DNA of 64,000 bases from Candidatus Rokuibacteriota bacterium. Lineage in GTDB: Bacteria > Methylomirabilota > Methylomirabilia > Rokubacteriales > CSP1-6. Below are positions 13,677 to 30,396 of the stretch, piece after piece. Position numbers and translations under genes: made by a program. The stretch covers positions 2,106 to 66,105 of the forward strand of contig QHSL01000089.1 of NCBI GenBank assembly GCA_003220435.1, given 5' to 3'. The first letter of the stretch is position 1; every line of letters begins with the position of its first letter. The notes below the pieces were generated by a model, which was not told the DNA's origin, did not search any database, and worked only from the letters and a program-made list of their open reading frames with translations.

Positions 13677-16108
13677 GTCGGCTGAGACTCTTCCGCCATG
13701 CAGGGGAACTCGATCTCGGCTATCGTTCCACCGAGAATCGAGCGAGGGAGAAGCGTCAAGCGTGCGCGATGAAAATCCGCGATCTCGCGACAAATCGACA
13801 GGCCGAGGCCAGTACCAGACGGTTTTGTTGTGAAGAAGGGCTCGAATATCTTGGTGCGAACAGTTGGATCGACGCCCAAACCCTCATCTATAACCCGGAC
13901 GAGAATTGAGGCTGCCGCAGACCGACCAGCCAGCTGATCTGCATCGATGGTGACAGTACCACCACCTGGCATTGCCTCAATTGCATTTCTGAGGAGATTC
14001 ACAAAGAGCTGGACGAGCTGGCTGGGATCGCCTTGGATCTTGGGCAAGTCATCAGGGCAGTGAAGGTCAATCTTTACCTGCTGCTCGTGGGCTGCCGGAG
14101 AGTGAATCGCAACAATGTCGTGAAGCAGCGGCGCTATCGACACGACGCTAAGCTTTCCCCCCTCGCTCGGCGCCATTAGTCGGAGTCGGTCAGCGAGCCG
14201 TACTATCCGCGACACCTCCATCGGGAGAATTCGGACGGCTGTGTCTCGATACTCAGGATCATCAAATCGGTCGGGGAGCATCGCTACGAAGTTTGAAATA
14301 GCGGCGAGCGGATTGCGAATCTCATGGGCGATACCCGCGTAGAAGCGCGCCATGATCGCGAGATGTTCGATCCTTCGTTGATTCCTCTCGAGTGCTTTGA
14401 CGGTGGAGAGGTCAGTGACCACAACGAGGGCCCCGGAAACCCGGCCCTTGTCGTCGTGCAGGACCGCAGTGGAAAGGATCACATGCAAGACGTCCCGGCT
14501 CGTATGGTCGATGGTTACCTCTACCTCCCTCGGATGCCAGCCCCCACTGATTGCGAGGACTAGGGCCCATCCGATCTCGGACGGCAACACGCTCATCAAG
14601 GCGCCGCGGTGATCATCTCTTAGACCGAGCAGGTTTTTTGCCGCACGATTGAAGCTCGTCATTCTCCCCGCAATGTCGATGGCGACAACGGCAGAGTCCA
14701 GTGACTCTAGAAGGCGATCCGAGTACTCCAGCATCTGAATCCGCTGTCGGTACAGCGTTGCGTTCTCGAGTGCGATCGATGCGAGATCTGTGAGCGATTC
14801 GATGAAGAGCAGGTCGTTCTTGAAGTAGGCATCTCCGCTGCGCCGAGACCCCAAGAGCACAAGTGCCAGGAGTTGGCCGCGTCTTCCTAGGGTCACTACG
14901 ACTTCGACACCGGCTGTTCGCAGGGCCTCATGCGCGGGCTTTGCGGGACCTGTTTCTTGCGCGGGATCTACGACTATCAGCGTCGTATCAGAACGACCCA
15001 CATGCAATGAGGACAAGGCGGAAACATCGACTGCTTGAGTCGCACTACTTGCAGTGAGATCTTCGAATGTGTCGCTTTCAAAGGATTTGACAAGCATCGT
15101 AAAGGATTCTGGCACTAACACTTCGCCAAGAATCTGCCGAAGCTCGGCAGCTACTTCCGTCGGTTGCATAAGACGGCTCAGGCGTCTTGTGGCACCGCGG
15201 AGTGCTGAGGAGTACTCAATGCCACCGCGAAACAAGTAAGGATCTATCACTCGGTTGAAGAAGTGTTGAGCCGGGCTCGACAGCATCGCGAGGGCGACGA
15301 TCGCGACGATGACGAGATCGGGGTGAATGAACGGGGCCTCAACCTCCCAGGCAGGAAATAGTAATCGTGTCCCAGTTATCAAGAGAGCTGATGCTGCGGC
15401 CATTGAGAAGGCGTACGCCAATCCCCGACTGATGAATATGCGGAGGTCCATTAGCCGATGACGAATGATGGCGTGACCTACGAGAGCAACCAGAGGCAGG
15501 GTGAAGTATGGGCCAAGCCAGCTGAGTGTTGATCGTCCTGTGACAATCGGAATCATCAGGTTGGTCGTAATTCCGCCCGCACTGAGGACCAACAAGCCGA
15601 TTCCGAGGTATTGCAACTGGGCTCGCGCTAACCCTCGTTCCCGACGCCACTTCAAGATGAAGACGCTCAGAGCAGTGATCAGACAGGCCAGAAAATAAAA
15701 CGTAAACAGGGAGAAAAGAGGACCAGATCTACGCTGAATTCCGGTGGTCGTTAGTGATATGTCGTAGGCGATCAGTCGAGTTGCCACTGACAACACCGCC
15801 AGCACCGCGCCGACGCCGAGCGCTGTCCACAGAACTGACGTAGATGGCCACGCACTCGTCGCAGGAAAGACACGTGAGAACGCCAAGAAGGCCGCAGGCA
15901 TCATGCATGCTGCTACGAAAGTAACTCGTCCCCATGCCTCGGTGTGAATGCCGCTCTCTACGCCTCCGATTCCGAGCACCCAGCCGGCAATCGAAATAGT
16001 CAGTATCGCGAAGCGGCAATTTATCTTGCTGTCTGGTCGAGCCCGCCAGACATAGGTCGCAAGTCCTACCAACAGAAGAGCTAGCGCTAGGAGTGAAGGT
16101 GCGCGCAC
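13673..16108 (-). CDS. membrane sensor histidine kinase, tandem paralog of the downstream gene
   Basis: GTG start 4 nt after the ketosynthase stop. Same architecture as the downstream paralog. H-box GIAHEIRNPL, N-box NLLRNAIEA, DEGLGV, GTGLGLSI. Shares VWRARPDS, KWRR..GLARAQ and HAIIRHRLMD with the paralog. Confidence 0.9.
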   Translation of the reverse strand: MRAPSLLALALLLVGLATYVWRARPDSKINCRFAILTISIAGWVLGIGGVESGIHTEAWGRVTFVAACMMPAAFLAFSRVFPATSAWPSTSVLWTALGVGAVLAVLSVATRLIAYDISLTTTGIQRRSGPLFSLFTFYFLACLITALSVFILKWRRERGLARAQLQYLGIGLLVLSAGGITTNLMIPIVTGRSTLSWLGPYFTLPLVALVGHAIIRHRLMDLRIFISRGLAYAFSMAAASALLITGTRLLFPAWEVEAPFIHPDLVIVAIVALAMLSSPAQHFFNRVIDPYLFRGGIEYSSALRGATRRLSRLMQPTEVAAELRQILGEVLVPESFTMLVKSFESDTFEDLTASSATQAVDVSALSSLHVGRSDTTLIVVDPAQETGPAKPAHEALRTAGVEVVVTLGRRGQLLALVLLGSRRSGDAYFKNDLLFIESLTDLASIALENATLYRQRIQMLEYSDRLLESLDSAVVAIDIAGRMTSFNRAAKNLLGLRDDHRGALMSVLPSEIGWALVLAISGGWHPREVEVTIDHTSRDVLHVILSTAVLHDDKGRVSGALVVVTDLSTVKALERNQRRIEHLAIMARFYAGIAHEIRNPLAAISNFVAMLPDRFDDPEYRDTAVRILPMEVSRIVRLADRLRLMAPSEGGKLSVVSIAPLLHDIVAIHSPAAHEQQVKIDLHCPDDLPKIQGDPSQLVQLFVNLLRNAIEAMPGGGTVTIDADQLAGRSAAASILVRVIDEGLGVDPTVRTKIFEPFFTTKPSGTGLGLSICREIADFHRARLTLLPRSILGGTIAEIEFPCMAEESQPT

Positions 16109-18292: not shown

Positions 18293-19237
18293 ATGCACGA
18301 TCTCGTCTCGCTGGGCGAGGTGCTGCTGCGACTCGCGATCCCATCACCTGCCCGCTTCGAGACGGCCCACCAGCTCGACCTCCAGATCGGCGGCGCCGAA
18401 GCCAACGTAGCCGCCGCGTGCGCGCGGCTCGGCCTGAGAACCGCATGGATCTCCGCGCTCCCGGCCAACCCGTGGGGCGAACGGATCCGGCGCGAGCTGA
18501 CCGCCCACGGCGTGGACTGCGGACTGGTGCGGATGACCCCGAACACTCGGGTCGGGACCTACTTCCTCGAGTACGGCGTGCCGCCGCGTCCCGTGCGGGT
18601 GCTCTACGATCGCCGCGACTCCGCGTTCGCCCGGCTGACGCCAGCGGAAGTCGACTGGGAACCGGTACGGAGCGCACGGCTCGTGCACCTCACCGGCGTC
18701 ACCCCCGCGCTCGGCGACTCGGCCCGCGCCCTCGTCGAGCGCGCTCTGCGTGAGGCCTCCACCGTGTCGTTCGACGTGAACTATCGCACGACCCTGTGGT
18801 CGCCGGTGGACGCGCGCGCGTTCCTCGAGACCGTGCTCCCGCACGTTCGGTACCTCTTCATCGGCCAGGCGGAGGCCGACACGCTCTTTGGGCTTTCCGG
18901 CGCGCCCGAGCCGACGCTCGACGCGCTGGCGCGCCTCGCGCCGAAGGCGACGATCAGCCTCCAGCAGGGCGGGGAGGGCTCCACGGTGCTCGACGGCGGA
19001 CGGCTCTATCGGCCGCGCCGGCGCCCGACCGTCCAGGTCGTCGACCCGATCGGGGCGGGCGACGCGTACGCGGCCGGCTTTCTCTGGGCGATGCTGCGCG
19101 GACGCGATCTTCAAGACGCGGTCGACGCGGGCACGGCGGTCGGAGCGCTCAAGTGCTCGACCTGGGGCGACATCGCGCTCGTCAGTGAAGCGGACGTTGC
19201 CGACGTGCTGGCTGGCGGACCCGACGTCCGTCGGTGA
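18293..19237 (+). CDS. PfkB-family sugar kinase (2-keto-3-deoxygluconate kinase-like)
   Basis: GGAEANVAAACARLG N-terminal motif and DPIGAGDAYAAGF C-terminal motif. Confidence 0.85.
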   Translation: MHDLVSLGEVLLRLAIPSPARFETAHQLDLQIGGAEANVAAACARLGLRTAWISALPANPWGERIRRELTAHGVDCGLVRMTPNTRVGTYFLEYGVPPRPVRVLYDRRDSAFARLTPAEVDWEPVRSARLVHLTGVTPALGDSARALVERALREASTVSFDVNYRTTLWSPVDARAFLETVLPHVRYLFIGQAEADTLFGLSGAPEPTLDALARLAPKATISLQQGGEGSTVLDGGRLYRPRRRPTVQVVDPIGAGDAYAAGFLWAMLRGRDLQDAVDAGTAVGALKCSTWGDIALVSEADVADVLAGGPDVRR

Positions 19238-19264
19238 CGTTCACCCTGTTCTCGACCCGCCTGC

Positions 19265-19270
19265 TATAGT
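19265..19270 (+). promoter_or_regulatory. -10 hexamer TATAGT 9 nt upstream of the helicase ATG (leaderless-type)
   Basis: TATAGT at 19265-19270 and ATG at 19280. No Shine-Dalgarno is present. Confidence 0.35.
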
Positions 19271-19279
19271 CGAGGCGGC

Positions 19280-22243
19280 ATGGCGGGTGAGCGGATCCTC
19301 GACGGCCTGAACGACGAGCAGCGGCGGGCCGTCACCCACGATGCCGGCCCCCTCCTGATCGTCGCCGGCGCCGGCACCGGCAAGACGACGGTCATCACTC
19401 GGCGGATCGCCTGGCTCATCGCCCAGCGCCGGGCGCGCCCCGAGGAGATTCTCGCGCTCACCTTCACCGACAAGGCGGCGGCCGAGATGGAGGAGCGCGT
19501 CGACACGCTGGTGCAGTACGGCTACGCGGACGTCGAGATCTCCACGTTCCATGCGTTCGGCGATCGGCTCCTGCGCGAGCACGCGCTCGAGATCGGGCTC
19601 CAACCCGATTTCCGCGTCCTCAACCGCGCCGAGCAGGTGATCTTCTTCCGCGATCGCCTGTTCGAGTTCCCGCTGGTGCACTACCGTCCGCTCGGCGACC
19701 CGGCCCGGCACATCCGCGCGATCATGACCCTGATCAGCCGCTGCAAGGACGAGGACATCTCACCCGAGGAGCATCAGGCGTACGTCGAGCAGGTGGCCGG
19801 CGAGGTGCCCGCCACCGACGACTACGAGGAGGCGCGCGAGCGCGTCGCCCAGCAGCGCGAGCTAGCCGCCACCTACGCCAAATACCAGGAGCTGATGGCG
19901 CGCGAGGGCCGCGTCGACTTCGGTGATCAGATCGTGCTTGTCCTGAAGCTCTTGCGGGCGCGGGCCAACGTGCGCACCAACCTTCAACGCCGCTACAAGT
20001 ACGTCATGGTGGACGAGTTCCAGGACACGAACCACGCCCAGTTCGAGCTGGTGAAGCTGCTGGGCGCCCGCCACGGCAACGTCGCGTGTGTCTGCGACGA
20101 CGATCAGGCGATCTACCGCTGGCGCGGGGCGGCCATCTCCAACGTGCTGGCCTTTCTCGATCGCTATCCCGAGGCGCGTCAGGTGGTGCTCACCGAGAAC
20201 TACCGGTCGCACCAGAAGATCCTCGACGCCGCCTACCGGCTCATCGTCAACAACAACCCGGACCGACTCGAGGTACGCAGCGGTATCAGCAAGCACCTCG
20301 TGGCCGTCCACGAAGCGGACGGCCCGGCCCCCGCGCACCTGCACTACGAGACCGGCACGCAGGAGTCCGACGCCGTCGCTCACGCGATCCGCGCGAAGGT
20401 CGACGCCGGCCAGTGGCGATACGATGACGTGGCCATTCTGGTCCGCTCCAACGACGACGCCGAGCAGTTCCTGCGCTCGCTCAACCTCAAGGGCATCCCG
20501 TGGACCTTCTCGGGCAACTCCGGGCTCTACGGCCGGCCCGAGATCCGACTGCTGATCGCCTTCTTGAGGTCGCTCGTCCACACCGACGAGTCGGTCAGCC
20601 TCCACTATCTGGCCTCCTCGGAGCTCTACCAGGTGCCGGTCGTCGACCTGACACGGTGCTCGACCTACGCCGATCGCCGCCACGTCTATCTGTTCGACGT
20701 CTGCCGAAAGACCGAGACGATCCGCGAGCTCCGCGACGAGATCGGCGAGGAAGGCCACGCCGCGATCCAGCACCTCGTCCGCGATCTCGAGCGCTACATG
20801 GAGCTCGGCCGCGAGATGCCGACCGGCGAGCTGCTGTATCTGTTCCTCAGGGACTCCGGCTGGCTCGGCCGGATGTACCGCGAGGAGACGGCTCGCGACG
20901 TCGCCGAGAGCAAGAACATCGCGAAGTTCTTCGACCGGGTGAAGTCGGCGTCGCGCGCGCTCCGCTACGACAACGTGCGGGAGTTCGTGAAGCACCTGGA
21001 CGAGCTGATCGAGGCTGGTGAAGACCCGGCGGTCGCCGAGGCGGAGATCGAGACCCCGGCGGTGCGCGTCCTCACCATCCACAAGGCCAAGGGGCTCGAG
21101 TTTCCCGTCGTGTTCCTGGTGAACCTGGTGCAGGAGAAGTTCCCGCTGCGCCGCCGCCGCGATCCGCTGGAGCTGCCGGTGGCCCTGATGAAGGACGCGG
21201 TGCCGACCGGCGACTTCCATTTGCAGGAAGAGCGCCGGCTCTTCTATGTCGGCATGACGCGGGCGCGCCGGGCGCTCTATCTCACCAGCGCCGGCGACTA
21301 CGGCGGCAGCCGCCAGCGCAAGACGAGCCTGTTCGTGCTCGAGGCCCTCGACCTGCCGCGCGAGGCGAGCCGGCCGTTCAGGGTCCGCCCGGTCGAGGAG
21401 ATCGAGCACCATGCGCCGCCGGCGGAGGTCGAGGATCCAACGCTGCAGCCGCTGGCGCACGACGCCGAGCTGAATCTCAGCCACAAGCAGATCGACGACT
21501 ACCAGACGTGTCCGCTCAAGTACTTCAACGTGCACGTCCGGCGCATCCCGATCCGCCGCCATCACGCGGTTGCCTACGGCGCGGTCATGCACAAGGTCGT
21601 CGAGTACTACCTGCGCCGCCGGGTCGTGGGGAACTACACCCCGCTGGAGGACCTGCTGGCCGTGTACGAGCGCGCCTGGGCGGGCGAAGACATCGTCCAC
21701 GATCGGGCCGGCAGCGAGCCGGCCGAGGGCTTCCTGACGCGCGAGCACGAGGAGGCGCGCAAGGCGGCCGGCCGCGAGGCGCTCCGGCGCTTCTGGAACC
21801 ACGAAGAGGCCGAGGGCACCAAGCCGACCTGGGTGGAAAAGGAATTCGGCTTCGCGCTCGGACCCGATCGCGTGCGCGGCCGCTACGACCGGGTGGACGA
21901 AGACCTGTTGGGTGCGGTGATCGTCGACTACAAGACGACCGAGATCACGCGCCAGAAGGATGCCGATCGCCGCGTGTCGGCGAGCCTCCAGCTCAAGATG
22001 TACGCGCTGGCGTGGCGGGAGATGACGGGCAGCCTGCCCCAGCGGCTGGAGCTGCGCTTCATCGACTCGAACGTGGTCGGCCGCCACACGCCGACCGCCG
22101 ACGACGTCGAGAAGGCGATCGACGCCGTCAAGGCGGCGGCGGTCGGCATCCGCGCCCGGCGCTTCGACGCAACGCCCTCGTGGGGTGCCTGCCGCAGCTG
22201 CGCCTACAACCAGATCTGCCCGTTCACCGCGACGCGTGATTGA
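19280..22243 (+). CDS. SF1 UvrD/PcrA-type helicase fused to a C-terminal PD-(D/E)xK, Cas4/AddB-like Fe-S nuclease
   Basis: Helicase motifs: GAGTGKT, DEFQDT, VCDDDQAIYRWRGA, TENYRS, TIHKAKGLEFPVVF, LFYVGMTRAR. Nuclease motifs: RYDRVD...VIVDYKT, QLKMYALAW. Cysteines: QTCPLKY plus CRSCAYNQIC. Confidence 0.9.
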   Translation: MAGERILDGLNDEQRRAVTHDAGPLLIVAGAGTGKTTVITRRIAWLIAQRRARPEEILALTFTDKAAAEMEERVDTLVQYGYADVEISTFHAFGDRLLREHALEIGLQPDFRVLNRAEQVIFFRDRLFEFPLVHYRPLGDPARHIRAIMTLISRCKDEDISPEEHQAYVEQVAGEVPATDDYEEARERVAQQRELAATYAKYQELMAREGRVDFGDQIVLVLKLLRARANVRTNLQRRYKYVMVDEFQDTNHAQFELVKLLGARHGNVACVCDDDQAIYRWRGAAISNVLAFLDRYPEARQVVLTENYRSHQKILDAAYRLIVNNNPDRLEVRSGISKHLVAVHEADGPAPAHLHYETGTQESDAVAHAIRAKVDAGQWRYDDVAILVRSNDDAEQFLRSLNLKGIPWTFSGNSGLYGRPEIRLLIAFLRSLVHTDESVSLHYLASSELYQVPVVDLTRCSTYADRRHVYLFDVCRKTETIRELRDEIGEEGHAAIQHLVRDLERYMELGREMPTGELLYLFLRDSGWLGRMYREETARDVAESKNIAKFFDRVKSASRALRYDNVREFVKHLDELIEAGEDPAVAEAEIETPAVRVLTIHKAKGLEFPVVFLVNLVQEKFPLRRRRDPLELPVALMKDAVPTGDFHLQEERRLFYVGMTRARRALYLTSAGDYGGSRQRKTSLFVLEALDLPREASRPFRVRPVEEIEHHAPPAEVEDPTLQPLAHDAELNLSHKQIDDYQTCPLKYFNVHVRRIPIRRHHAVAYGAVMHKVVEYYLRRRVVGNYTPLEDLLAVYERAWAGEDIVHDRAGSEPAEGFLTREHEEARKAAGREALRRFWNHEEAEGTKPTWVEKEFGFALGPDRVRGRYDRVDEDLLGAVIVDYKTTEITRQKDADRRVSASLQLKMYALAWREMTGSLPQRLELRFIDSNVVGRHTPTADDVEKAIDAVKAAAVGIRARRFDATPSWGACRSCAYNQICPFTATRD

Positions 22244-24567
22244 TGCAGGGGCTGGGTGAAGCCGACACCCGCGCCAAGCTGATCGACCCTGGCCTGCACG
22301 CGCGTGGCTGGACCGAAGACCTGATCCGTCGCGAAGAAACGGCCGGGGCTGTGGAGATAGTCGGGAGTCGTCCACGGCGCCGTTCCCGCGGCCGCGTCGA
22401 CTACACGCTCCGTGTGAAGGTGAACTCGGAGAGCCATGGACTCGAGCAGGCCAAGAGCTACGCGGCCTGTCGCCGCCTCAACGTCCTGTTCGCCTTCTCA
22501 TCCAACGGCCACCAGTTCGTCGAATACGACAAGACAACCGGACTCACCACCGCTCCTCGGCCGCTCAGTGATTTTCCGACGCCGGCCGACCTGCGTTCCC
22601 GCTACGAGAGGGTGATGGGCTTCAGCCTCGAGTCGCCGGCCGCGCGGCCGTTGCTCGCGCGATACCCGGGGGGCGAAGCGACGCGCCGTTACTACCAAGA
22701 TGCCGCGATCCGCGCCGTGCTCGAGAAGCTGGCGCGGGGCGACAGGCGCGCACTCCTGGCGCTGGCAACCGGGTCGGGCAAGACCTTCATCGCCGTCCAC
22801 CTGCTCAAGAAGATCGCCGACGCCGGCCAGCTCCGTCGCGCGCTGTTCGTGTGCGACCGCGACGAGCTGCGTAGCCAGGGCCTGGGCGCCTTCCAGAACG
22901 TCTTCGGGGCCGACGCGGCGTCCGTGTCGAGCGGCAACCCGCAGAAGAACGCGCGAATCCTGATCGCCACCTACCAGACGCTCGACGTCGCCACCGATGA
23001 TGCCGACGCGAACTTCCTCGTCGCCAACTACCCCGAGAACTATTTCAGTCACATCGTGATCGACGAATGCCACCGCTCGGCCTGGGGCAAGTGGTCTCAA
23101 GTGCTCACACGGAACGCTGATGCGGTGCAGGTGGGCCTCACCGCCACGCCGCGGCAGATCGAGCTAACGGAGCGTAGCCCGGAGGTCCAGGCCGACGCCC
23201 AGATCACGGCGGACAACATCCGTCACTTCGGTGAGCCCGTCTACGAGTACGACATCGCGCAAGGCATCGAGGACGGTTATCTCGCCGCGTGCGAGATCGT
23301 CCGCCGCGACATCTTCCTGGACGACAAGCTGCGGCCCGAGCGAGAGACAGGGGTGGAAGTCGAGGATTTCGCCAGCAAACGGGTGACGGACGCCCAAACG
23401 GGTGAGCTGCTGACGGTTGCAGAGGCTCGCGCTCGCTATGAAGCAACGGATTTTGAGGAGCGCCTGCTTCTGCCCGACCGCGTCCAGGCGATGTGCCGCG
23501 ATCTCTTCCAACATCTCCTCGCCTCGGGCGGGCCCGAGCAGAAGACCATAGTTTTCTGCGCGCGAGACCGTCACGCGGAAGACGTCGCCATCGCTCTGAA
23601 CAATCTCTATGCTATGTGGTGCACGCAGCAGGGGAGGCCGCGCCTCGAGCCCTACGCCTTCAAGTGCACCGCGGCGAGCGGCGGCGGCGACTATCTGGCG
23701 GATCTTCGCGGGGCGGCGCGTCACCACTTCGTCGCGACCACGGTAGACCTCTTGACGACAGGTGTCGACGTGCCGTGCGTCCGGAACATTGTCTTCTTCA
23801 AGTACGTACGCTCGCCGATCGCGTTCTATCAGATGATCGGCCGTGGAACGCGCCTCGACCCGGCGAGCGAGAAGCTGATGTTCCGCGTGTACGACTACAC
23901 CGACGCTACCCGGCTCTTCGGCGAGGAGTTCAGGACCAAGTTCCGCCCGCCGCGAGGTCAAGGGGGCATCGACGCGCCGGAACCGCCCGAGCCTCCGGAG
24001 CGGACTCTCCAGGTGGAAGGCTTCGCGGTGCGAGTGACCGACGCCGGCCACTACATCGTGACCTCGGAGGACGGGCGCGCCGTGGCCATAACGATGGAAG
24101 AGTACAAGCAGCGCCTGGCGGCACGGCTCGTCGAGGCGGCGCCGACGCTCGACGAGTTCCGGCGGCAGTGGATCGTCCAGGCGGCGCGGCGTGCGCTGCT
24201 GGCCCAGCTTCCCGAGGGCGGTCGCTCGGCCCTTCTCATCCGCGCGCTCGAGCACATGACGGACTATGACCTCTACGACGTGCTCGGCGAGCTAGGCTAC
24301 GGCCTTGCGCCGCGCACGCGGCCCGACCGCGCGGAGGCGTTCACCTACAAGCATTCGCGCTGGTTGTCCGAGCTGCCCGCGCGCGCGGCGGCCACGCTCA
24401 AAGCGCTGGCCAGCCAATTCGCCGGCGCCGGGACGGAGAGCCTCGAGAATCCGCAAGTGTTCGAGATGCCTGACGTCGTCCGCGCCGGCGGCCTGCCGGC
24501 GCTCAAGACGCTGGGTGAGCCGGCCGAGGTGCTCCACGATACTAAAGAACGGCTCTTCGCAGCGTGA
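22243..24567 (+). CDS. hsdR: type I restriction enzyme R subunit, EcoEI-like family; nuclease E-x-K strand not found
   Basis: ATG at 22243 overlaps the helicase TGA (TGATG). Motifs: TRAKLIDPGL...RVDYTL...GLEQAKSYA...FSSNG, ATGSGKTF, VIDECHRS, GLTATP, TTGVDVP, QMIGRGTR, and an EcoEI-type C-terminal domain. See the finding on the missing nuclease strand. Confidence 0.85.
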   Translation: MQGLGEADTRAKLIDPGLHARGWTEDLIRREETAGAVEIVGSRPRRRSRGRVDYTLRVKVNSESHGLEQAKSYAACRRLNVLFAFSSNGHQFVEYDKTTGLTTAPRPLSDFPTPADLRSRYERVMGFSLESPAARPLLARYPGGEATRRYYQDAAIRAVLEKLARGDRRALLALATGSGKTFIAVHLLKKIADAGQLRRALFVCDRDELRSQGLGAFQNVFGADAASVSSGNPQKNARILIATYQTLDVATDDADANFLVANYPENYFSHIVIDECHRSAWGKWSQVLTRNADAVQVGLTATPRQIELTERSPEVQADAQITADNIRHFGEPVYEYDIAQGIEDGYLAACEIVRRDIFLDDKLRPERETGVEVEDFASKRVTDAQTGELLTVAEARARYEATDFEERLLLPDRVQAMCRDLFQHLLASGGPEQKTIVFCARDRHAEDVAIALNNLYAMWCTQQGRPRLEPYAFKCTAASGGGDYLADLRGAARHHFVATTVDLLTTGVDVPCVRNIVFFKYVRSPIAFYQMIGRGTRLDPASEKLMFRVYDYTDATRLFGEEFRTKFRPPRGQGGIDAPEPPEPPERTLQVEGFAVRVTDAGHYIVTSEDGRAVAITMEEYKQRLAARLVEAAPTLDEFRRQWIVQAARRALLAQLPEGGRSALLIRALEHMTDYDLYDVLGELGYGLAPRTRPDRAEAFTYKHSRWLSELPARAAATLKALASQFAGAGTESLENPQVFEMPDVVRAGGLPALKTLGEPAEVLHDTKERLFAA

Positions 24568-24571
24568 GGTG

Positions 24572-25141
24572 ATGAGGCTGCCAAGGCACGACACCGGTTT
24601 CGTCCACCAACTCAAGATCACGTTGCTAGGCGTCGAACCCGCTGTCTGGCGTCGCCTCCAGGTTACCAGCAGCCTGACGCTCGAGCGGCTCCACACGGTC
24701 ATTCAAAAAGTCTTGGGCTGGCAGAACGCCCACCTCTACGAGTTCGAGGTGCGGGGCCGCCGTTACGGCGTGCCGGAGCCTGAAGAGCCCGAGTACGAAG
24801 TCGAGCCCGTCTGGAAGATCACGCTGCGCGAGGCGGCCCCCGCCGAAGGTACATCATTCCGGTACGTGTACGACCTCGGCGATGGTTGGACTCACGAGAT
24901 TCTCGCGGAGCGGATCGAGAATCCCGACAAACCTCTCGGACATCCCGTCTGCATTGCAGGCGAACGCCGCTGCCCACCCGAGGACTGCGGCGGGCCTGGT
25001 GGATACGAAGCGCTACTGGCAGCGATCCGCGATCCCGACCATCCCGAGCATGACGACGTGGTTCGCTGGGTCGGCGCAGGTTTCGAGCCTGAGTTCTTTG
25101 TCGTCACGGCTGTAAACCGAAAGCTTCGTTTGCTGAGATGA
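24572..25141 (+). CDS. plasmid pRiA4b ORF-3-like (MM3350-like) domain protein
   Basis: Family-typical pattern: FVHQLKITLLGVEPAVWRRLQV...LHTVIQKVLGWQNAHLYEF...YVYDLGDGWTHEI...CPPEDCGGPGGYEALL. Starts 4 nt after hsdR and overlaps hsdS (ATGA). Confidence 0.85.
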   Translation: MRLPRHDTGFVHQLKITLLGVEPAVWRRLQVTSSLTLERLHTVIQKVLGWQNAHLYEFEVRGRRYGVPEPEEPEYEVEPVWKITLREAAPAEGTSFRYVYDLGDGWTHEILAERIENPDKPLGHPVCIAGERRCPPEDCGGPGGYEALLAAIRDPDHPEHDDVVRWVGAGFEPEFFVVTAVNRKLRLLR

Positions 25142-26346
25142 GGCGACTTCGGCTCGGGGAAGTACTCCGTCTGAGGAAGGAGGTCGTTCACCCGCACGAC
25201 AAGCCCCGAGGCCGAGCGGTATTCGTCGGACTCGAACACCTCGAATCAGGGTCGGGGCTCAGGACCGGCGCGCTGGACGTCGATCTAGAGCACCTAACCG
25301 GGCGTAAGCCGAAGTTCTACAAGGGTGACATGGTCTACGGATACCTTCGGCCGTACTTGAACAAGGTGTGGATCGCCGAGTTTGACGGCCTGTGCTCGGT
25401 GGACCAGTACGTGTACGAAGTTGACGGTTCGCTAGCGGACGCCGAGTTCGTTGCCTGGTTCATCCGCAGCCCGCACTATCTTGCGCGCGCCCCTGTCCAG
25501 ACCGGGCCCGGGCAGCTCCCTCGCATCAGACTGGAAGAGGTCGCCGCGATCGAGGTGGACCTTCCGGATCTTGACCAGCAGAGACTCCTCGTTAGTGCGA
25601 TCCGGGCACAGATGGCGGAGGTGGCGCGGGCGCGCTCCGCCGCCGAATTCCAGCTCGACGCCGTCAGGGCGCTGTCTTCTGCCAGAAGCAGCGAAGTGTT
25701 CCACACCTCAGAAGTGACCAGATGGCCGCGTAAGCGCCTTGGAGACTTGGCATCGAATGACGACGCGTTTGCCGACGGCCCCTTCGGGTCGCATCTGAAG
25801 ACCGCCCACTACAGTGAACGGGGTGCGAGGGTGATCAGGCTTCAGAACATCGGGAGAGGGACGTTTCTGGGAGAGGACAAAGTATACATACCGATTGAGC
25901 ACTATTGGACGCTTGAACGACACAGCGCGCGGCAAGACGATGTAGTTGTAGCAGCATTGGGTGATGGGGAACGACCCGCCGGTCGTGCCTGTCTCGTGCC
26001 TCCGGATCTTGGACCGGCCCTCGTCAAAGCGGACTGCTTTCGCATCCGCCTCCCTGGGCACGTGCTAGCTCCCGGCTACCTTGCTGCCTACCTGAACTCT
26101 CCTGATTCACTGGGGCGCATGGCGGGAGCGATGCGAGGTGCGACGCGTCCGCGAGTGACCCTTTCGATCATCCGCGAAGTGGAAATTCCGCTACCACCTG
26201 TCGTCGAACAGGTCCACATGACGCGGAAGTTGAACGAGGAACTCGCCGAAGCTGGCCAACTTCTTCAGAGGTTGGAACAGGAGCTCGTGACAATCGAGTC
26301 GCTTCCCGAAGCCCTGTTGCGTCGCGCGTTCGCCGGCGAGCTTTGA
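25138..26346 (+). CDS. hsdS: type I restriction-modification specificity subunit (two target-recognition domains)
   Basis: 402 aa with two TRD halves, each followed by a conserved helical spacer (LPDLDQQRLLVSAIRAQMAEV; LPPVVEQVHMTRKLNEELAEA). G+C is visibly lower than the neighbours. Confidence 0.85.
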   Translation: MRRLRLGEVLRLRKEVVHPHDKPRGRAVFVGLEHLESGSGLRTGALDVDLEHLTGRKPKFYKGDMVYGYLRPYLNKVWIAEFDGLCSVDQYVYEVDGSLADAEFVAWFIRSPHYLARAPVQTGPGQLPRIRLEEVAAIEVDLPDLDQQRLLVSAIRAQMAEVARARSAAEFQLDAVRALSSARSSEVFHTSEVTRWPRKRLGDLASNDDAFADGPFGSHLKTAHYSERGARVIRLQNIGRGTFLGEDKVYIPIEHYWTLERHSARQDDVVVAALGDGERPAGRACLVPPDLGPALVKADCFRIRLPGHVLAPGYLAAYLNSPDSLGRMAGAMRGATRPRVTLSIIREVEIPLPPVVEQVHMTRKLNEELAEAGQLLQRLEQELVTIESLPEALLRRAFAGEL

Positions 26347-26370
26347 AAGGGCTCTCACACAGAAGGCGCA

Positions 26371-26412
26371 TGCTATTATCGATATATGTACCTATCGAAA
26401 ATAATATTCATG
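26371..26412 (+). promoter_or_regulatory. AT-rich promoter/operator-like patch upstream of fic
   Basis: TGCTATTATCGATATATGTACCTATCGAAAATAATATTCA is the most AT-rich stretch in the window. It contains the TATCGATA palindrome, a repeated TATCGA, and TATAT/TAATAT -10-like hexamers. Confidence 0.4.
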
Positions 26413-26431
26413 CTTGTTATCACCCGCGCAA

Positions 26432-27604
26432 ATGAGCAAGGCCTCCGCCGCGCTGCCGAATAGCCCGCCGGGCCAAAAGGTCCGCTGTGCCGGGGGCTAC
26501 ATGGCCTTCGTGCCGGACCCTCTCCCGCCAGAGCTCGAATGGACGCCCCAGCTCGTTCGCGCGCTATCGGACGCCGATCGTCTCACCGGCCGCCTGGCGG
26601 GGGAAGGCGGACGGCTGGCGAACCCCCACCTCCTGATCCGGCCCTTCGTCAGGCGCGAGGCAGTGCTGTCGAGTCGGATCGAAGGCACCCAGGCGACCCT
26701 CGGGGAGTTGCTCGCCGCTGAGGCGGGCGCGGCGGTAGACAGAAGTCCGGCGGATCTCCGCGAGGTGGCCAACTACGTTGTCGCCCTCGAGTACGGGGTG
26801 AAGCGGCTCAAGACTCTGCCGCTGTCGCTTCGGTTGACGCGAGAGCTTCACGCGAAGCTCATGATGGGTGTTCGCGGCGACCATGCGACCCCCGGCGAGT
26901 TCAGGAAGACGCAGAACTGGATCGGACCGCCTGGCGCGCCGCTGGCGAACGCGACGTATGTTCCACCGCCGCCGGACGCGCTGATGGACTGCCTGGGGTC
27001 GTGGGAGAAGTTTCTTCATGACCGTTCGCTGCCAGTCCTGGTGCAGGCTGGGCTGATGCACGTCCATTTTGAAGCCATTCATCCGTTCCTGGACGGCAAC
27101 GGGCGGGTCGGGCGCCTGCTCATCACGCTCTTCCTCGTCGAGCGGCAAGTCCTGCCGGCGCCGCTTCTCTATCTCAGCGCCTTCTTCGAGGCGACTCGCG
27201 CCGACTACTATGCGAGGCTCCAGGGCGTGCACGAGCGCGGCGAATGGGAGGAGTGGCTGGAGTACTTTCTGACCGGCGTGGCACGGCAGTCCGAAGATGC
27301 CTTGAGCCGAGCGGAGCGCATGAATACGCTCATCGCGAGATGGAAGACCGAGTTGGCTGGCACGTCCCAGGCAGTGCTGAAACTCGTGGACGTGCTGGCC
27401 GAGAATCCCTACTGCACTGTCCGCCGAGTCGAAAAGCGGCTCAAGGTCGCGTTCACGACCGCCCAGCGGGCGATGGAGAAGCTTCAGGATGCGGGCATCC
27501 TCAAGCAAGTCAACCAGGCCAGGCGTGACCGCGTCTACTGCGCCGTGCCCGTGCTGAAGATCCTGGAAGAGCCCGCTCGCCTCGTGCCGGTAGGCGCCGT
27601 GTGA
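26432..27604 (+). CDS. Fic/DOC family protein (AMPylase-type) with internal inhibitory motif and C-terminal wHTH-like region
   Basis: Fic motif HPFLDGNGRVGRLL, N-terminal S-x-x-x-E-G (SSRIEG), and a GGYMAFVPDPLPPEL N-terminus typical of this subfamily. The ATG at 26432 is preferred over the TTG at 26414. Confidence 0.85.
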   Translation: MSKASAALPNSPPGQKVRCAGGYMAFVPDPLPPELEWTPQLVRALSDADRLTGRLAGEGGRLANPHLLIRPFVRREAVLSSRIEGTQATLGELLAAEAGAAVDRSPADLREVANYVVALEYGVKRLKTLPLSLRLTRELHAKLMMGVRGDHATPGEFRKTQNWIGPPGAPLANATYVPPPPDALMDCLGSWEKFLHDRSLPVLVQAGLMHVHFEAIHPFLDGNGRVGRLLITLFLVERQVLPAPLLYLSAFFEATRADYYARLQGVHERGEWEEWLEYFLTGVARQSEDALSRAERMNTLIARWKTELAGTSQAVLKLVDVLAENPYCTVRRVEKRLKVAFTTAQRAMEKLQDAGILKQVNQARRDRVYCAVPVLKILEEPARLVPVGAV

Positions 27605-29133
27605 TGGCTCGTCCGCGAGCCGGCTCCAACGGCAAGCGCCTCGCCACCCCGCAATCCGTCGACGCCGCGGTCAAGAGCATCTGCGACATCATGCGGCGCT
27701 CGAACTGCGCGGGTGCGCTCCAATACGTCCCGGAGCTGACCTGGATCCTCTTCCTCCGCATCCTGGACGAACGCGAGGCCCAGGAGGCCGAGCGAGCCCG
27801 CGCGGTGGGCTCCGAATTCACGTCGTCGCTCGAGTCACCGTACCGCTGGGAAGGCTGGGCGGCGCCCGGCGGACGCAAGCGACGCGAGCTGCAGGACGGC
27901 ACGCTCGGCGCGGTGTAGAGCTTCGTGAACGCAGAGCTGTTGCCGTACCTGCGCGGCCTTCGAGAGAAGCCGGGCGCCACGCCGCGGCAGAAGGTGATCA
28001 GCGAGATCATGTCGGGCGTCGAGCGAACGCGCATCGATACCGACCGGAACTTCCTCGACGTCCTCGACCGCGTGCACGCGATCAGCGCGGAGGCGGTCGA
28101 CTCCACCCACGTCTTCACGCTCTCGCAGGTGTACGAAGGGTTGCTGCTCAAGATGGGGGAGAAGGGCAACGATGGAGGGCAGTTCTTCACCCCGCGCGAG
28201 GTGATCCGCGTGGTGGTGCGGGCGATCGACCCGAAGACCGGCGAGACGGTCTACGACCCTGGCTGCGGCACCGGGGGCTTCCTCGCTCAGGCCTACGAGC
28301 ACATGGCCGGGCCGAATCACTCGAAGATCGCTTCGCCTGACCAGCTCGAGGCGCTGAAGCGCCGGACCTTCTACGGGCGGGAGAAGGACAACACGATCTA
28401 CCCGATCGCGCTCGCCAACCTGGTCCTGCACGACATCGACGAGCCCCACGTCTGGCACGGCAACACGCTGACGGGCCAGGAGACGTACGGCGGGCTCTTC
28501 CAGGACGCGCCGGCGCTGTTCGACGTCATCCTGATGAATCCGCCGTTCGGGGGCAAGGAGGGCAAGGAGGCGCAGACCAGGTTCCCGTACAAGACCGGCG
28601 CGACTCAGGTGCTGTTCCTCCAGCACGTGATCGACACGCTCAAGCGCGGCGGGCGCTGCGGCATCGTGCTGGACGAGGGCGTGCTCTTCAGGACCAACGA
28701 GACCGCGTTCGTCCAGACCAAGCGGAAGCTCCTCGACGAGTGCGATCTCTGGTGCATCCTTAGCCTGCCCGCCGGCGCGTTCGTGAACGCCGGCGCCGGC
28801 GTGAAGACGAACCTGCTCTTCTTCACCAAGGGCCAGCCGACCGAGCGCATCTGGTACTACGACCTTTCCGACGTGAAGGTCGGCAAGAAGTCGCCGCTAA
28901 CGCTCGAGAAGTTCGAGGAGTTCTTCCGGCTTCTGCCGACGCGGGGCGACGGCGAGCACTCCTGGACGGTCGAGCGGAAGGAAATCGATGCGCGAGGATA
29001 CGACCTCAAAGCCGTCAACCCCCACGCCAGCCGGGATGAGGACACCCGCACGCCCGAGGAGCTGCTCGACATCATCGAGGCCAAGGGTCGCGAAGTGGCA
29101 GATGCTGTCGCCGAGCTGAGGAAGCTCCTCTGA
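27604..29133 (+). pseudogene. hsdM: type I restriction-modification N6-adenine methyltransferase subunit interrupted by an in-frame TAG at 27916-27918
   Basis: Track ORFs 27601..27918 (HsdM N-terminal domain: VKSICDIMRRSNCAGALQYVPELTWILFLRILDE) and 27925..29133 (DPGCGTGGFL, NPPFGG) are in the same frame. Only TAG AGC TTC separates them. The ATG at 27604 overlaps the fic TGA. Confidence 0.8.
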
Positions 29134-29282
29134 ACCGCCACGCCGGTCCGCCGCGCGCGAGCGACACACCTTCGGTTCCCGAGCCGACCTACGCCGAGCG
29201 GGCGCGGACGCTCGCTCATCTCGGGCGCACCGGCGCGCTGGCGACGCTCTCGCGCCGCCATCCCGGCCATCCGTTCGCGTCC

Positions 29283-29924
29283 GTGATGCCGTATGCGCTC
29301 GACGAGACCGGCCGACCGCTTCTCTTGATCAGCGCGATGGCGATGCACACGCAGAATCTCCAGGCCGATCCGCGCACGAGCCTGCTCATCACGCAGCCGA
29401 ACCCGACCGGGGAATCGGGCGATCCACTCGCCGCCAGCCGGCTCACCCTGATGGGCGAGGCGCGCCGCCTGGACGGCGGCGACGTCGCGCCGGCACGGCA
29501 GGCGTATCTCGCGCGGCACCAGCGCGCCTCCTACTGGGTGGATTTCGACGACTTCAGCTTCTGGCGGATCGACGTGACGGATGTCTACTTCGTCGGCGGC
29601 TTTGCCGCGATGGACTGGGTGACGATCGACGCCTATCGATCCGCGGGGCCTGATCCCCTGGCCGACGCCGCGACGGGCATCATGGAGCACATGAACCGCG
29701 ACCACGCCGATGCCCTCGTCGCGTACGCGCGTCACTTCGCCGGCGAGCCCGCCGACGCCGCGACGATGGTGGCCGTGGACCGTCTCGGCTTTCGCTTGCG
29801 CCTGCGACAGGGCGAGCGGCTGCACGCCGTGCGCATCGCGTTCCCGCGTCCCCTCGCGACCGCGGCCGAGAGCCGCACCGTGCTGATCGAGATGTTGCAG
29901 CAAGCGCGCGGCGCGACGGCCTGA
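29283..29924 (+). CDS. pyridoxamine-5'-phosphate-oxidase-like / DUF2470 heme-utilisation (HugZ-like) protein; 5' end unresolved
   Basis: Motifs ISAMAMHTQNLQADPRTSLLI and MEHMNRDHADAL (DUF2470 part). Conserved-looking codons continue upstream of the first GTG/ATG with no canonical start. See the finding at 29134. Confidence 0.7.
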   Translation: MMPYALDETGRPLLLISAMAMHTQNLQADPRTSLLITQPNPTGESGDPLAASRLTLMGEARRLDGGDVAPARQAYLARHQRASYWVDFDDFSFWRIDVTDVYFVGGFAAMDWVTIDAYRSAGPDPLADAATGIMEHMNRDHADALVAYARHFAGEPADAATMVAVDRLGFRLRLRQGERLHAVRIAFPRPLATAAESRTVLIEMLQQARGATA

Positions 29925-29951
29925 CGCCGGCCGCACGCCGCGGCCGCCTCC

Positions 29952-29980
29952 TTGACAGACGCCCCGCGCTTGCATACGTT
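29952..29980 (+). promoter_or_regulatory. sigma-70-type promoter candidate (TTGACA-N17-TACGTT)
   Basis: TTGACA at 29952-29957 and TACGTT at 29975-29980. The downstream gene has an AGGAGG Shine-Dalgarno before the ATG at 30082. Confidence 0.45.
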
Positions 29981-30081
29981 GAGCCCCGCCGGCGGACACC
30001 TGTTCTAACCGCGCCTCGGCCGGGGGGCCCCAGCCCCGCGACGGCCTGCAGCGCGCACAGCATGCCAGTCAGGAGGTCACC

Positions 30082-30396
30082 ATGGTCCGCATCTCCGTGT
30101 TGTACGCGACGAGCGAGGGCAAGAAGTTCGACCACGACTACTACGTGAACCGGCACATGAAGCTGGTGCGCGAGCGCCTCGGCAGCTTCGGCCTGGTCCG
30201 CACCGAGGTCGACAAGGGCATGGCGGGCGGCGCGCCGGGCGCCCCGGCGCCGTACGTCGCGATTGGTCACGTGTACTTCAATTCCCTCGACGGCTTTCAG
30301 AAGGGGATGGGCCAGCACGGCAAGGAGATCATGGGCGACGTGCCCAACTACACGAACATCCAGCCTCAGATCCAGATCAGCGAAATCATAGGATAG
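30082..30396 (+). CDS. EthD-family protein
   Basis: 104 aa. MVRISVLYATSEGKKFDHDYYVNRHMKLV...NYTNIQPQIQISEII is the typical EthD-domain pattern. Confidence 0.8.
   Translation: MVRISVLYATSEGKKFDHDYYVNRHMKLVRERLGSFGLVRTEVDKGMAGGAPGAPAPYVAIGHVYFNSLDGFQKGMGQHGKEIMGDVPNYTNIQPQIQISEIIG

What the first reader, a model, noticed from the sequence alone, without database searches (positions are those of the whole stretch)
19280..29133. Composite same-strand block: helicase-nuclease + type I R-M genes in R-x-S-x-M order with two guest genes and apparently disabled R and M
Six genes lie on one strand with minimal spacing:
- SF1-Cas4-like helicase-nuclease, joined to hsdR by a TGATG overlap at 22241-22245
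- hsdR, followed 4 nt later by a pRiA4b-ORF3-like gene
- that gene overlaps hsdS by ATGA at 25138-25141
- an 85-nt AT-rich gap
- fic, joined to hsdM by a TGATG overlap at 27602-27606

Two things are unusual for a type I system. The order (R first, M last, S separated from M) is atypical. Two non-R-M genes are embedded.

In addition, HsdR seems to lack its E-x-K nuclease strand and hsdM has an in-frame TAG. The flanking HugZ-like gene has lost its start codon, consistent with an insertion boundary at about 29134.

Possible readings:
(a) A decaying R-M island kept for its passengers.
(b) A re-wired defence module in which the HsdR motor works with the adjacent intact helicase-nuclease and/or the Fic and ORF3-like effectors.
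(c) Sequence errors.

I cannot distinguish these from the sequence alone. Reading (b) would be new biology.
Basis: partly seen in the sequence, partly recalled or inferred. Interest (0 to 1): 0.7.

Follow-up and report, generated by a model that had tools for sequence, protein, structure and literature searches.

The report
Decaying type I restriction island with passengers
A horizontally acquired DNA-restriction gene cluster carrying two passenger genes sits between two ordinary chromosomal genes and has recently lost both its cutting and its methylating activity; this is a clear but ordinary case of a defence island decaying, not a new defence machine.

Summary
The interesting interpretation is not supported.

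**What the block is**
- Window 22243-29133 is a type I R-M island related to EcoAI/FtnUII, in the order hsdR, PRiA4_ORF3, hsdS, SoFic-type fic, hsdM.
- It sits exactly between the stop codon of a UvrD+PD-(D/E)XK helicase-nuclease and the start codon of a HugZ-like gene.
- The helicase-nuclease is a core gene, not a partner. All 18 closest metagenomic relatives (89-93% identity) have pfkB, helicase, HugZ with only 6-24 nt between the last two and no R-M genes.

**Order and guests**
- R..S..M is the order in all 53 related loci that hold both R and M.
- Guests in those gaps are common: Fic, TIR, HEPN/MNT, Mrr, RadC and others.

**The lesions are real and private to this lineage**
- hsdR has a 54-nt in-frame deletion that removes the E-x-K strand. 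All 76 aligned homologues keep it.
- hsdM has TTG changed to TAG at codon 105.
- HugZ has its start GTG changed to CTG.
- All three recur in three other contigs at 99.92% identity, from two other assemblies.

**Timing and decay elsewhere**
- Low dN/dS (0.05-0.11) against the nearest relative indicates the damage is recent.
- Sister loci at the same site show other decay states, several keeping only fic.

**Verdict:** reading (a), a decaying island with an autonomous Fic passenger.

The parts
19280..22243 (+). Left flank, not part of the island: core UvrD-type SF1 helicase with a C-terminal PD-(D/E)XK (Cas4-like) nuclease, 987 aa
   Evidence: Pfam UvrD-helicase 1.9e-78, UvrD_C, PDDEXK_1 2.3e-37. 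The order orf17489, pfkB, helicase, HugZ is conserved in metagenome loci at 63-93% identity. 18 of 18 closest relatives have no R-M genes. dN/dS is 0.08 against L003.
22243..24567 (+). hsdR, related to EcoAI/FtnUII, 774 aa. The SF2 motor and the EcoEI_R_C tail are intact. The nuclease is disabled by a 54-nt in-frame deletion.
   Evidence: NF046051 matches residues 6-759 to model positions 2-750 of 768, 415.6 bits against a cut-off of 550. Pfam ResIII, Helicase_C, EcoEI_R_C. Alignment to 76 homologues and to PDB 3H1T.
22434..22435 (+). Junction of the 54-nt (18-aa) deletion that removes the E-x-K beta-strand of the PD-(D/E)XK nuclease. The aspartate in GRVDY is kept.
   Evidence: DNA alignment with L003. 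E-[AT]-K is present in 76 of 76 homologues. The deletion is also present in L161 and L162.
24572..25141 (+). Guest 1: PRiA4_ORF3 (MM3350-like) protein, 189 aa, apparently intact, function unknown
   Evidence: Pfam PF07929 4.1e-60. PDB 2I1S 'hypothetical protein' 6.7e-33. No PADLOC or NCBIfam hit. Found downstream of hsdR in 9 of 80 related loci. dN/dS is 0.18 against L003.
25138..26346 (+). hsdS, 402 aa, two target-recognition domains, apparently intact
   Evidence: PADLOC Specificity_I 3.6e-47, matched end to end. The two halves are related to different loci, as expected for a mosaic of recognition domains.
26347..26431 (+). AT-rich (41% G+C) region upstream of fic with an inverted repeat TATTATCGATA / TATCGAAAATA at 26374-26403. 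Inferred promoter and operator of an autonomous fic cassette.
   Evidence: The repeat is conserved upstream of fic in L101, L102, L103, L113, L117 and L022, including loci where fic stands alone. Function is inferred, not tested. The sigma-70 consensus scan found nothing.
26432..27604 (+). Guest 2: SoFic-type Fic protein, 390 aa, with Fic_N, Fic and a C-terminal winged helix. Catalytic and inhibitory motifs are intact.
   Evidence: PADLOC SoFic 1.7e-120, model positions 6-359 of 361. Pfam Fic_N, Fic, SoFic-like_C. HPFLDGNGRVGR at residue 217 and SSRIEG at residue 80. dN/dS is 0.09 against the stand-alone copies in L101 and L113.
27604..29133 (+). hsdM pseudogene: HsdM_N domain followed by N6_Mtase, interrupted at codon 105
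   Evidence: Pfam and PADLOC hits on the two pieces. Translation.
27916..27918 (+). In-frame TAG. The closest relative has TTG (Leu) here.
   Evidence: All 49 aligned in-frame homologues have a sense codon. The same split into 104 aa and 402 aa is called in L162 and L163.
29130..29924 (+). Right flank: HugZ-like gene (PNPOx/CREG barrel plus DUF2470). Full coding sequence is present but the ancestral GTG start is CTG at 29130-29132, overlapping the hsdM TGA.
   Evidence: Empty-site loci read GTGAACCG(C/T)CACGC. L003 keeps a GTGA overlap. The window has CTGAACCGCCACGCC. Pfam. L162 and L163 show no difference from the window at this position.

Best explanation
**What it is**
- Window 22243-29133 is a horizontally acquired type I restriction-modification island related to EcoAI/FtnUII.
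- Its order is hsdR, [slot 1], hsdS, [slot 2], hsdM, which is normal for its clade.
- Slot 1 holds a PRiA4_ORF3 gene. Slot 2 holds a SoFic-type fic cassette.
- The island lies exactly between the stop codon of a core helicase-nuclease gene and the start codon of a core HugZ-like gene, in a Rokubacteria/Methylomirabilota-like genome.

**Its present state**
- In this population the R-M function has recently been lost.
- A 54-nt in-frame deletion removed the catalytic E-x-K strand of HsdR, so there is no DNA cleavage.
- A TTG to TAG change truncates HsdM after 104 residues, so there is no methylation.

**Inferred order of events**
- The nuclease lesion probably came first or at the same time.
- Losing M while R is still active would expose the chromosome to self-restriction.
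- Once R is dead, M is free to decay.

**The passengers**
- The fic cassette has its own AT-rich upstream region with a conserved inverted repeat, and intact catalytic and auto-inhibitory motifs.
- It is inferred to work on its own, as described for SoFic: an AMPylating abortive-infection toxin.
- It is the part most likely to be kept as the R-M shell erodes.
- The function of ORF3 is unknown. Homologues on plasmids sit beside transposase genes.

**The helicase-nuclease**
- It is an unrelated housekeeping neighbour.
- The overlapping stop and start codons reflect a compact, operon-like arrangement, not a functional partnership.

**Shown:** anatomy, lesions, synteny, empty sites, decay series, selection signatures.
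**Inferred:** order of the lesions, loss of the phenotype, autonomy and activity of Fic.
For: **Domain assignments**
-.

**Empty site**
- 18 of 18 relatives with 89-93% identical helicase have HugZ starting 6-24 nt after the helicase stop, with GTG as its start.

**Helicase is not an R-M partner**
- Only the syntenic relative L003 among 80 hsdR-related loci has the helicase directly upstream.

**Order and guests are the norm**
- 53 of 53 loci with R and M have R..S..M, with R-to-M spacing from 551 to 9737 nt.
- Guests include Fic (7), TIR (5), SocA, RadC, DUF4411, Schlafen, Mrr, HEPN/MNT and AbiEii-like proteins.

**Lesions are unique to this lineage**
- E-[AT]-K is kept in 76 of 76 homologues.
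- A sense codon stands at the TAG position in every aligned in-frame homologue, and L003 has TTG.

**Lesions are real**
- L161, L162 and L163, from two other ENA assemblies, are 99.92% identical to the window with private SNPs and carry all the lesions.

**Lesions are recent**
- dN/dS against L003 is 0.08 for HsdR and 0.05-0.11 for HsdM, as low as for the core genes.

**Independent decay at the same site**
- L003, L096, L113, L101 and L103.

**Fic is intact and under purifying selection**
- Motifs are intact.
- dN/dS is 0.09 against the stand-alone copies.
- The upstream inverted repeat is conserved.

**Literature**
- Genes are often embedded in type I R-M systems (10.1101/2024.01.29.577857; PMC11411939).
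- SoFic is a stand-alone defence protein (10.1101/2022.05.11.491447; PMC12249575).
Against: - No phenotype, methylome or expression data are available.
- Apart from the single in-frame deletion, HsdR is fully intact, so a retained non-nucleolytic role for the motor cannot be excluded from sequence.
- A 402-aa HsdM fragment could in principle be re-initiated at GTG 27925.
- The few SNPs among the four near-identical contigs (5 synonymous and 3 non-synonymous in the R-M genes) do not show whether selection on R, S and M has relaxed.
- How the island came to be joined so precisely to both neighbouring genes is unexplained.
- The split hsdR in L003 is seen only in one assembly and could be an assembly error.
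Confidence: 0.85

Rival explanations
1. Re-wired defence module. The nuclease-dead HsdR motor works with the adjacent intact helicase-nuclease, which supplies the cutting activity.
For: - hsdR overlaps the helicase gene by TGATG.
- The helicase-nuclease has intact helicase and PD-(D/E)XK domains and matches GajB-type PADLOC models.
- The HsdR motor domains are intact.
Against: - The helicase sits in conserved pfkB, helicase, HugZ synteny with no R-M genes in 18 of 18 closest relatives and in many more distant ones.
- 79 of 80 hsdR relatives have no such helicase directly upstream.
- The nuclease deletion is private to this lineage. L003, which has the same helicase-hsdR junction, keeps E-x-K.
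- The GajB hits are generic UvrD similarity, and the upstream gene is pfkB, not a GajA-like gene.
Confidence: 0.02
2. The nuclease-dead HsdR, with HsdS, is kept under selection as a DNA-tracking sensor or regulator for the embedded effectors Fic and/or ORF3. The in-frame deletion would then be adaptive rather than decay.
For: - The deletion is in frame and leaves an otherwise undamaged 774-aa protein.
- hsdS, ORF3 and fic look intact.
- 4 of the 5 SNPs in hsdR among the near-identical contigs are synonymous.
Against: - HsdM, which is needed to assemble any type I complex on DNA (established knowledge of type I enzymes; PMC11411939 states the 2R+2M+S requirement), is truncated at codon 105.
- fic occurs alone at the same site in relatives and is under strong purifying selection there.
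- Guests in this clade are highly variable, which argues for independent cassettes.
- No other homologue shows a comparable deletion.
- The SNP counts are too small to be informative.
Confidence: 0.05
3. Sequencing or assembly errors created the deletion, the TAG and the CTG.
For: None found. The window appears to be a metagenomic assembly, so errors are possible in principle.
Against: - Three other contigs (L161 and L163 from ERZ27315255, L162 from ERZ28573530) each differ from the window by 3-6 SNPs.
- They share the 54-nt deletion, the TAG and the CTG.
Confidence: 0.01
4. A reversible OFF state of a functional R-M system, that is phase variation, rather than decay.
For: Type I systems are often phase-variable (PMC7672463; PMC9881135).
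Against: - There is no simple-sequence tract, invertible hsdS copy or recombinase at the locus.
- A 54-nt deletion that removes unique sequence cannot revert.
- TTG to TAG is a plain substitution.
Confidence: 0.02

Closest known systems
EcoAI/FtnUII-type (family IB-like) type I restriction-modification systems
   Same: - HsdR aligns end to end with NF046051 (model positions 2-750 of 768) and has ResIII, Helicase_C and EcoEI_R_C domains.
- HsdM has HsdM_N and N6_Mtase domains with an NPPF motif.
- HsdS has two recognition domains.

   Different: - The score is below the equivalog cut-off (415.6 against 550 bits).
- The order R-S-M, with guest slots, differs from the classical hsdR-hsdM-hsdS order of enteric systems (my own knowledge).
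- The E-x-K strand is deleted and hsdM is interrupted, so this copy is predicted to be inactive.
Type I R-M operons with embedded defence genes: V. cholerae VPI-2 T1RM with TgvAB, PrrC, and the 'guilt-by-embedding' sets of Payne et al. 2024
   Same: - Unrelated genes lie on the same strand between the hsd genes.
- In this clade 53 of 53 loci share the scaffold, and the guests are typical defence or toxin-antitoxin domains.
- The literature describes the phenomenon (PMC11411939; 10.1101/2024.01.29.577857).
   Different: - The guests here are a SoFic-type Fic and a PRiA4_ORF3 protein.
- The host R-M system is dead, whereas the VPI-2 system is active.
SoFic, a stand-alone Fic AMPylase defence system (Millman et al. 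2022; Sofic/AS1 study PMC12249575)
   Same: - Full-length match to the PADLOC SoFic model (1.7e-120).
- Fic_N, Fic and SoFic-like_C architecture.
- Intact HxFx(D/E)GNGRxxR motif and N-terminal (S/T)xxxE(G/N) inhibitory motif.

   Different: - The match is below the NCBIfam equivalog cut-off (167.9 against 550 bits).
- It is embedded between hsdS and hsdM.
- There is no room for a downstream AS1-like antitoxin gene, because fic overlaps hsdM by TGATG.
- Activity is not tested.
Stand-alone PRiA4_ORF3 / MM3350-like proteins (PF07929; PDB 2I1S), passengers of ISAzba1-group transposons and plasmids
   Same: - Single-domain protein of 189 aa covering the Pfam model (positions 3-169 of 173).
- 6.7e-33 to PDB 2I1S.

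   Different: - Here and in 9 of 80 related loci it lies downstream of hsdR inside an R-M operon (directly downstream in 7 of them).
- On plasmids it lies beside IS66 or ISL3 transposase genes (PMC3942029).
- No function is known in either setting.

Membership tests
Type I restriction-modification system (EcoAI/FtnUII relatives) | HsdR with an SF2 translocase core and the family's C-terminal domain | tested here: met
   ResIII 9.3e-34, Helicase_C, EcoEI_R_C. NF046051 is matched end to end.
Type I restriction-modification system (EcoAI/FtnUII relatives) | HsdR N-terminal PD-(D/E)XK nuclease with catalytic D...E-x-K | tested here: not met
   The E-x-K strand is removed by an 18-aa in-frame deletion. 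It is present in 76 of 76 homologues and in PDB 3H1T. The locus is a member by descent but is catalytically defective.
Type I restriction-modification system (EcoAI/FtnUII relatives) | Uninterrupted HsdM (HsdM_N plus N6 adenine methyltransferase) | tested here: not met
   Both domains are present, but a TAG at codon 105 splits the gene.
Type I restriction-modification system (EcoAI/FtnUII relatives) | HsdS with two target-recognition domains | tested here: met
   PADLOC Specificity_I models are matched over residues 3-402.
Type I restriction-modification system (EcoAI/FtnUII relatives) | NCBIfam equivalog score for the EcoAI/FtnUII R subunit | tested here: not met
   415.6 bits against a cut-off of 550. 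It is a relative, not a strict equivalog.
Type I restriction-modification system (EcoAI/FtnUII relatives) | Sequence-specific m6A methylation and ATP-dependent restriction | not testable with these tools
   This needs a methylome or a cloning assay. Predicted absent.
SoFic defence system | Fic_N, Fic and C-terminal winged-helix architecture with the HxFx(D/E)GNGRxxR motif | tested here: met
SoFic defence system | Works as a stand-alone gene | tested here: inconclusive
   85-86% identical copies stand alone between the same flanking genes in L101, L103 and L113, under purifying selection and with the same upstream repeat. No functional test was possible.
SoFic defence system | Anti-phage protection through AMPylation | not testable with these tools
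   An experiment is required.
Gabija (GajA/GajB) | A GajB UvrD-like helicase paired with an adjacent GajA OLD-type ATPase-nuclease | tested here: not met
   The helicase hits GajB models. Its neighbours are pfkB and hsdR, or HugZ in relatives, and no GajA-like gene is present.
Defence genes embedded in type I R-M operons | Non-hsd genes on the same strand between hsd genes, recurrent across related loci | tested here: met
   ORF3 lies downstream of hsdR in 9 of 80 loci. Fic lies between S and M in L002, L022, L035, L063 and L064. 53 of 53 loci share the R..S..M scaffold.

The most novel reading that the evidence does not exclude
- The gap between the helicase and HugZ genes is a recurrent cargo site in this Rokubacteria-like lineage.
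- There, type I R-M operons serve as disposable carriers. The R-M shell erodes repeatedly, while the self-regulated SoFic cassette is kept, with its conserved operator-like repeat.
- PRiA4_ORF3, which recurs downstream of hsdR in about 11% of loci of this R-M clade and matches no PADLOC model, is an unrecognised defence or R-M accessory gene rather than a mere transposon passenger.
Probability: 0.2. Interest if true: 0.5.

Novelty: new member of a known kind. Interest (0 to 1): 0.27.

Why it matters
- It gives a cleanly documented natural series of how a type I R-M island dies. The series runs from an empty site, through an intact-looking relative and early decay (nuclease strand deleted, methylase nonsense), to remnants and finally fic alone.
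- It shows that tight gene overlaps at island borders do not imply functional coupling.
- The practical leads are modest. PRiA4_ORF3 is a candidate R-M-embedded gene of unknown function. The conserved inverted repeat upstream of SoFic-type genes is a testable operator.
- No new kind of defence mechanism is indicated.

Tried and rejected
1. **GajB/Gabija reading of the helicase.** The PADLOC hits are generic UvrD similarity and there is no GajA.
2. **SNP-based test for ongoing selection.** Among the four near-identical contigs the R-M genes carry 5 synonymous and 3 non-synonymous SNPs. This is too few to decide anything.
3. **Promoter and terminator scan of 19000-30200.** No sigma-70-like sites were found, and terminator-like sites were no more frequent than in shuffles. 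The scan is uninformative for this phylum.
4. **tRNA, tmRNA and Rfam scans of the window.** Nothing was found, so there is no tRNA-type integration site.
5. **Search for an integrase or repeats at the island borders.** None was seen. The junctions are simple stop/start overlaps.
6. **Microhomology at the hsdR deletion.** Only 'CA' at the junction and an imperfect CTCGAG..GCCAAG repeat are present, so the mechanism is undecided.
7. **Frameshift in L003 hsdR.** It does not lie in a homopolymer, but I cannot tell whether it is real or an assembly error.
8. **Pfam annotation of all cargo at the helicase-HugZ site.** Not run. The longest-ORF calls in these high-G+C contigs include obvious antisense artefacts, so only what tblastn or direct reading supports is reported.

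Full report

Yes. The + strand carries six genes in a row:
- a 987-aa UvrD-type helicase with a C-terminal PD-(D/E)XK nuclease (19280-22243)
- hsdR (22243-24567)
- a PRiA4_ORF3 gene (24572-25141)
- hsdS (25138-26346)
- a Fic gene (26432-27604)
- hsdM (27604-29133)

The gap is 41% G+C.

hsdM has an in-frame TAG at 27916-27918.

HsdR aligns end to end with the EcoAI/FtnUII R-subunit model. However, it lacks 18 residues between S64 and H65. These are the strand carrying E-x-K of the PD-(D/E)XK nuclease. All 76 aligned homologues keep E-[AT]-K there, including the 94%-identical L003, and so does PDB 3H1T.

**2. Are the lesions errors?**

No. Exact-protein look-ups found three further contigs: L161 and L163 from ENA assembly ERZ27315255, and L162 from ERZ28573530. 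They are 99.92% identical to the window and each has its own 3-6 SNPs. Together they cover 21275-30020. All carry the 54-nt deletion, the TAG and the CTG described below.

**3. Where does the block begin and end?**

A metagenome scan with the helicase-nuclease returned 80 loci at 63-93% identity.
- In all 18 loci with 89-93% identity that reach the downstream gene, the order is orf17489, pfkB, helicase, HugZ.
- In these loci HugZ starts with GTG only 6-24 nt after the helicase stop.
- The window sequence right after the hsdM stop is homologous to that HugZ start. Empty sites read GTGAACCG(C/T)CACGC. The window reads CTGAACCGCCACGCC, with CTG at 29130-29132 overlapping the hsdM TGA. L003 keeps a GTGA overlap.

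It follows that:
- the insert is about 22243-29133;
- the helicase-nuclease is a core neighbour;
- HugZ is not truncated but has a single G to C change in its start codon.

**4. Is the order R-x-S-x-M with guests unusual?**

Not for this clade. A genome scan with HsdR returned 80 loci from many phyla at 58-94% identity.
- All 53 loci that contain both R and M have R..S..M on one strand. The R-to-M distance ranges from 551 to 9737 nt, whereas hsdS alone needs about 1.2 kb.
- A Pfam scan of 127 ORFs from those gaps found typical defence or toxin-antitoxin cargo: Fic (7), TIR (5), HTH/ImmA-like, SocA, RadC, DUF4411, Schlafen/AlbA_2, Mrr, HEPN/MNT, AbiEii-like and PRiA4_ORF3.
- ORF3 lies downstream of hsdR in 9 of the 80 loci, directly after it in 7. 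Fic lies between S and M in L002, L022, L035, L063 and L064.
- Only L003, the syntenic Rokubacteria relative, has the helicase directly upstream.

Embedding of other defence genes in type I R-M operons is documented. Examples are TgvAB in V. cholerae VPI-2 (PMC11411939) and the systematic survey in bioRxiv 10.1101/2024.01.29.577857, where PrrC is cited as a system found almost only inside type I R-M.

**5. Decay series at the same site**

- L003 has the same insertion between the helicase and HugZ. Its hsdR is split into two ORFs. Its hsdS region is replaced or degenerate. Only the last 88 codons of fic remain. Its hsdM is intact, with TTG where the window has TAG.
- L096 keeps an hsdS C-terminal remnant, fic, and an hsdM with an internal deletion.
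- L113 keeps an ORF3 N-terminal remnant, an intact fic and the last 19 codons of hsdM.
- L101 and L103 keep fic alone, 85% identical to the window's copy.
- L116 has fic, R, S, M.

So the R-M shell has been lost repeatedly and in different ways, while fic often survives.

**6. Timing**

Against L003, dN/dS is:
- 0.08 for HsdR
- 0.05-0.11 for HsdM
- 0.18 for ORF3
- 0.08 for the helicase
- 0.13 for pfkB

R and M were therefore under purifying selection for most of the divergence, and the lesions are recent.

dS is lower inside the island (0.27-0.43) than in pfkB (0.83), HugZ (0.74) or the helicase (0.50). The helicase is equally distant from L003 and from the empty-site locus L081. I take this to mean that the island was exchanged between related lineages by recombination through the conserved flanks. 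This is an inference.

**7. The passengers**

Fic:
- It matches the PADLOC SoFic model over its full length (1.7e-120).
- It has Fic_N, Fic and SoFic-like_C domains.
- It has an intact catalytic motif (HPFLDGNGRVGR) and an N-terminal inhibitory motif (SSRIEG).
- Its AT-rich upstream region contains an inverted repeat, TATTATCGATA / TATCGAAAATA, at 26374-26403. The repeat is conserved upstream of related fic genes whether they are embedded or alone.
- dN/dS against the stand-alone copies is 0.09.
- SoFic is a published stand-alone defence protein (10.1101/2022.05.11.491447). It is reported to act as an AMPylating abortive-infection toxin (PMC12249575).

ORF3:
- It is a complete PF07929 domain, similar to PDB 2I1S, a 'hypothetical protein'.
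- It has no PADLOC or NCBIfam hit.
- Homologues occur on 2706 plasmid records. The two I inspected lie beside IS66 or ISL3 transposase genes.
- The family is a known transposon passenger of unknown function (PMC3942029).

**8. Conclusion**

- The best-supported explanation is reading (a). This is a horizontally acquired type I R-M island with two embedded passengers, in an early stage of decay. I put the nuclease lesion first or simultaneous and the methylase nonsense second, by inference from the self-restriction risk.
- The island sits next to an unrelated core helicase-nuclease.
- Reading (c) is excluded.
- A retained non-nucleolytic role for the HsdR motor cannot be ruled out from sequence. 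It is unlikely, because HsdM is truncated and fic is autonomous elsewhere.
- Novelty: a new member of a known kind. Interest is low to moderate. The main leads are ORF3 as a recurrent R-M guest and the operator-like repeat of the SoFic cassette.

Noticed in passing
L081-L160 (gap between the helicase and HugZ genes); window 22243-29133: The helicase-HugZ junction is variably occupied. Of 51 loci that reach both genes, 28 have at most 135 nt between them. The other 23 carry 0.4-9.7 kb of cargo. This includes fic alone, R-M remnants, a HicA-like ORF (L107, judged by eye only), a coiled-coil ORF (L120, L121) and, in more distant relatives, what look like metabolic or signalling genes (by eye only).
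   Followed up: partly
window 26374-26403; L101, L102, L103, L113, L117, L022 upstream of fic: An inverted repeat TATTATCGATA-N8-TATCGAAAATA is conserved upstream of SoFic-type genes. It may be an operator for the protein's own C-terminal winged helix. L063 and L064 have a different palindrome (TTATTAAACAAAA..TTTTGTTTAATAA) at the same place.
   Followed up: partly
L002, L035, L096, L104, L116, about 100 nt upstream of fic: The more distant fic group (55-57% identity) is preceded by two or three copies of a palindromic CTTTGAAAG / CTTTCAAAG motif. The hsdS stop codon in the window lies inside one such motif (GAGCTTTGAAAG).
   Followed up: no
window 29130-29132: The ancestral GTG start of HugZ is CTG in this population. 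In L003 the start overlaps the hsdM stop as GTGA. With hsdM translation ending early at codon 105, any translational coupling to HugZ would also be lost, so HugZ expression may be reduced.
   Followed up: partly
L003 10543-10545: The closest relative's hsdR is split by a 1-nt frame change that does not lie in a homopolymer. It is either an independent inactivation or an assembly error in that metagenome-assembled genome.
   Followed up: partly
window 18293-29924 against L003: Synonymous divergence is lower inside the island (0.27-0.43) than in the flanking pfkB (0.83) and HugZ (0.74). This suggests the island moved between lineages after they split.
   Followed up: partly
window 11226-16108 (- strand): Two adjacent large sensor histidine kinase ORFs (854 aa and 810 aa) have similar NCBIfam hit profiles and may be paralogues. 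They lie in a stretch where G+C falls to 0.55-0.58, against about 0.68 elsewhere. This is unrelated to the finding.
   Followed up: no
L164 (Deinococcus plasmid NC_019789.1), L165 (Pseudomonas veronii plasmid NZ_CP142042.1): PRiA4_ORF3 homologues are very common on plasmids, in 2706 of 72,556 records, mostly conjugative ones. In the two contexts inspected they sit directly beside IS66 or ISL3 transposase genes.
   Followed up: partly
L116 12935-22665: A variant island at the same site has fic upstream of hsdR (fic, R, S, M). A large minus-strand ORF with a CxxxCxxC-type motif, which looks like a radical-SAM protein by eye, lies before HugZ.
   Followed up: no
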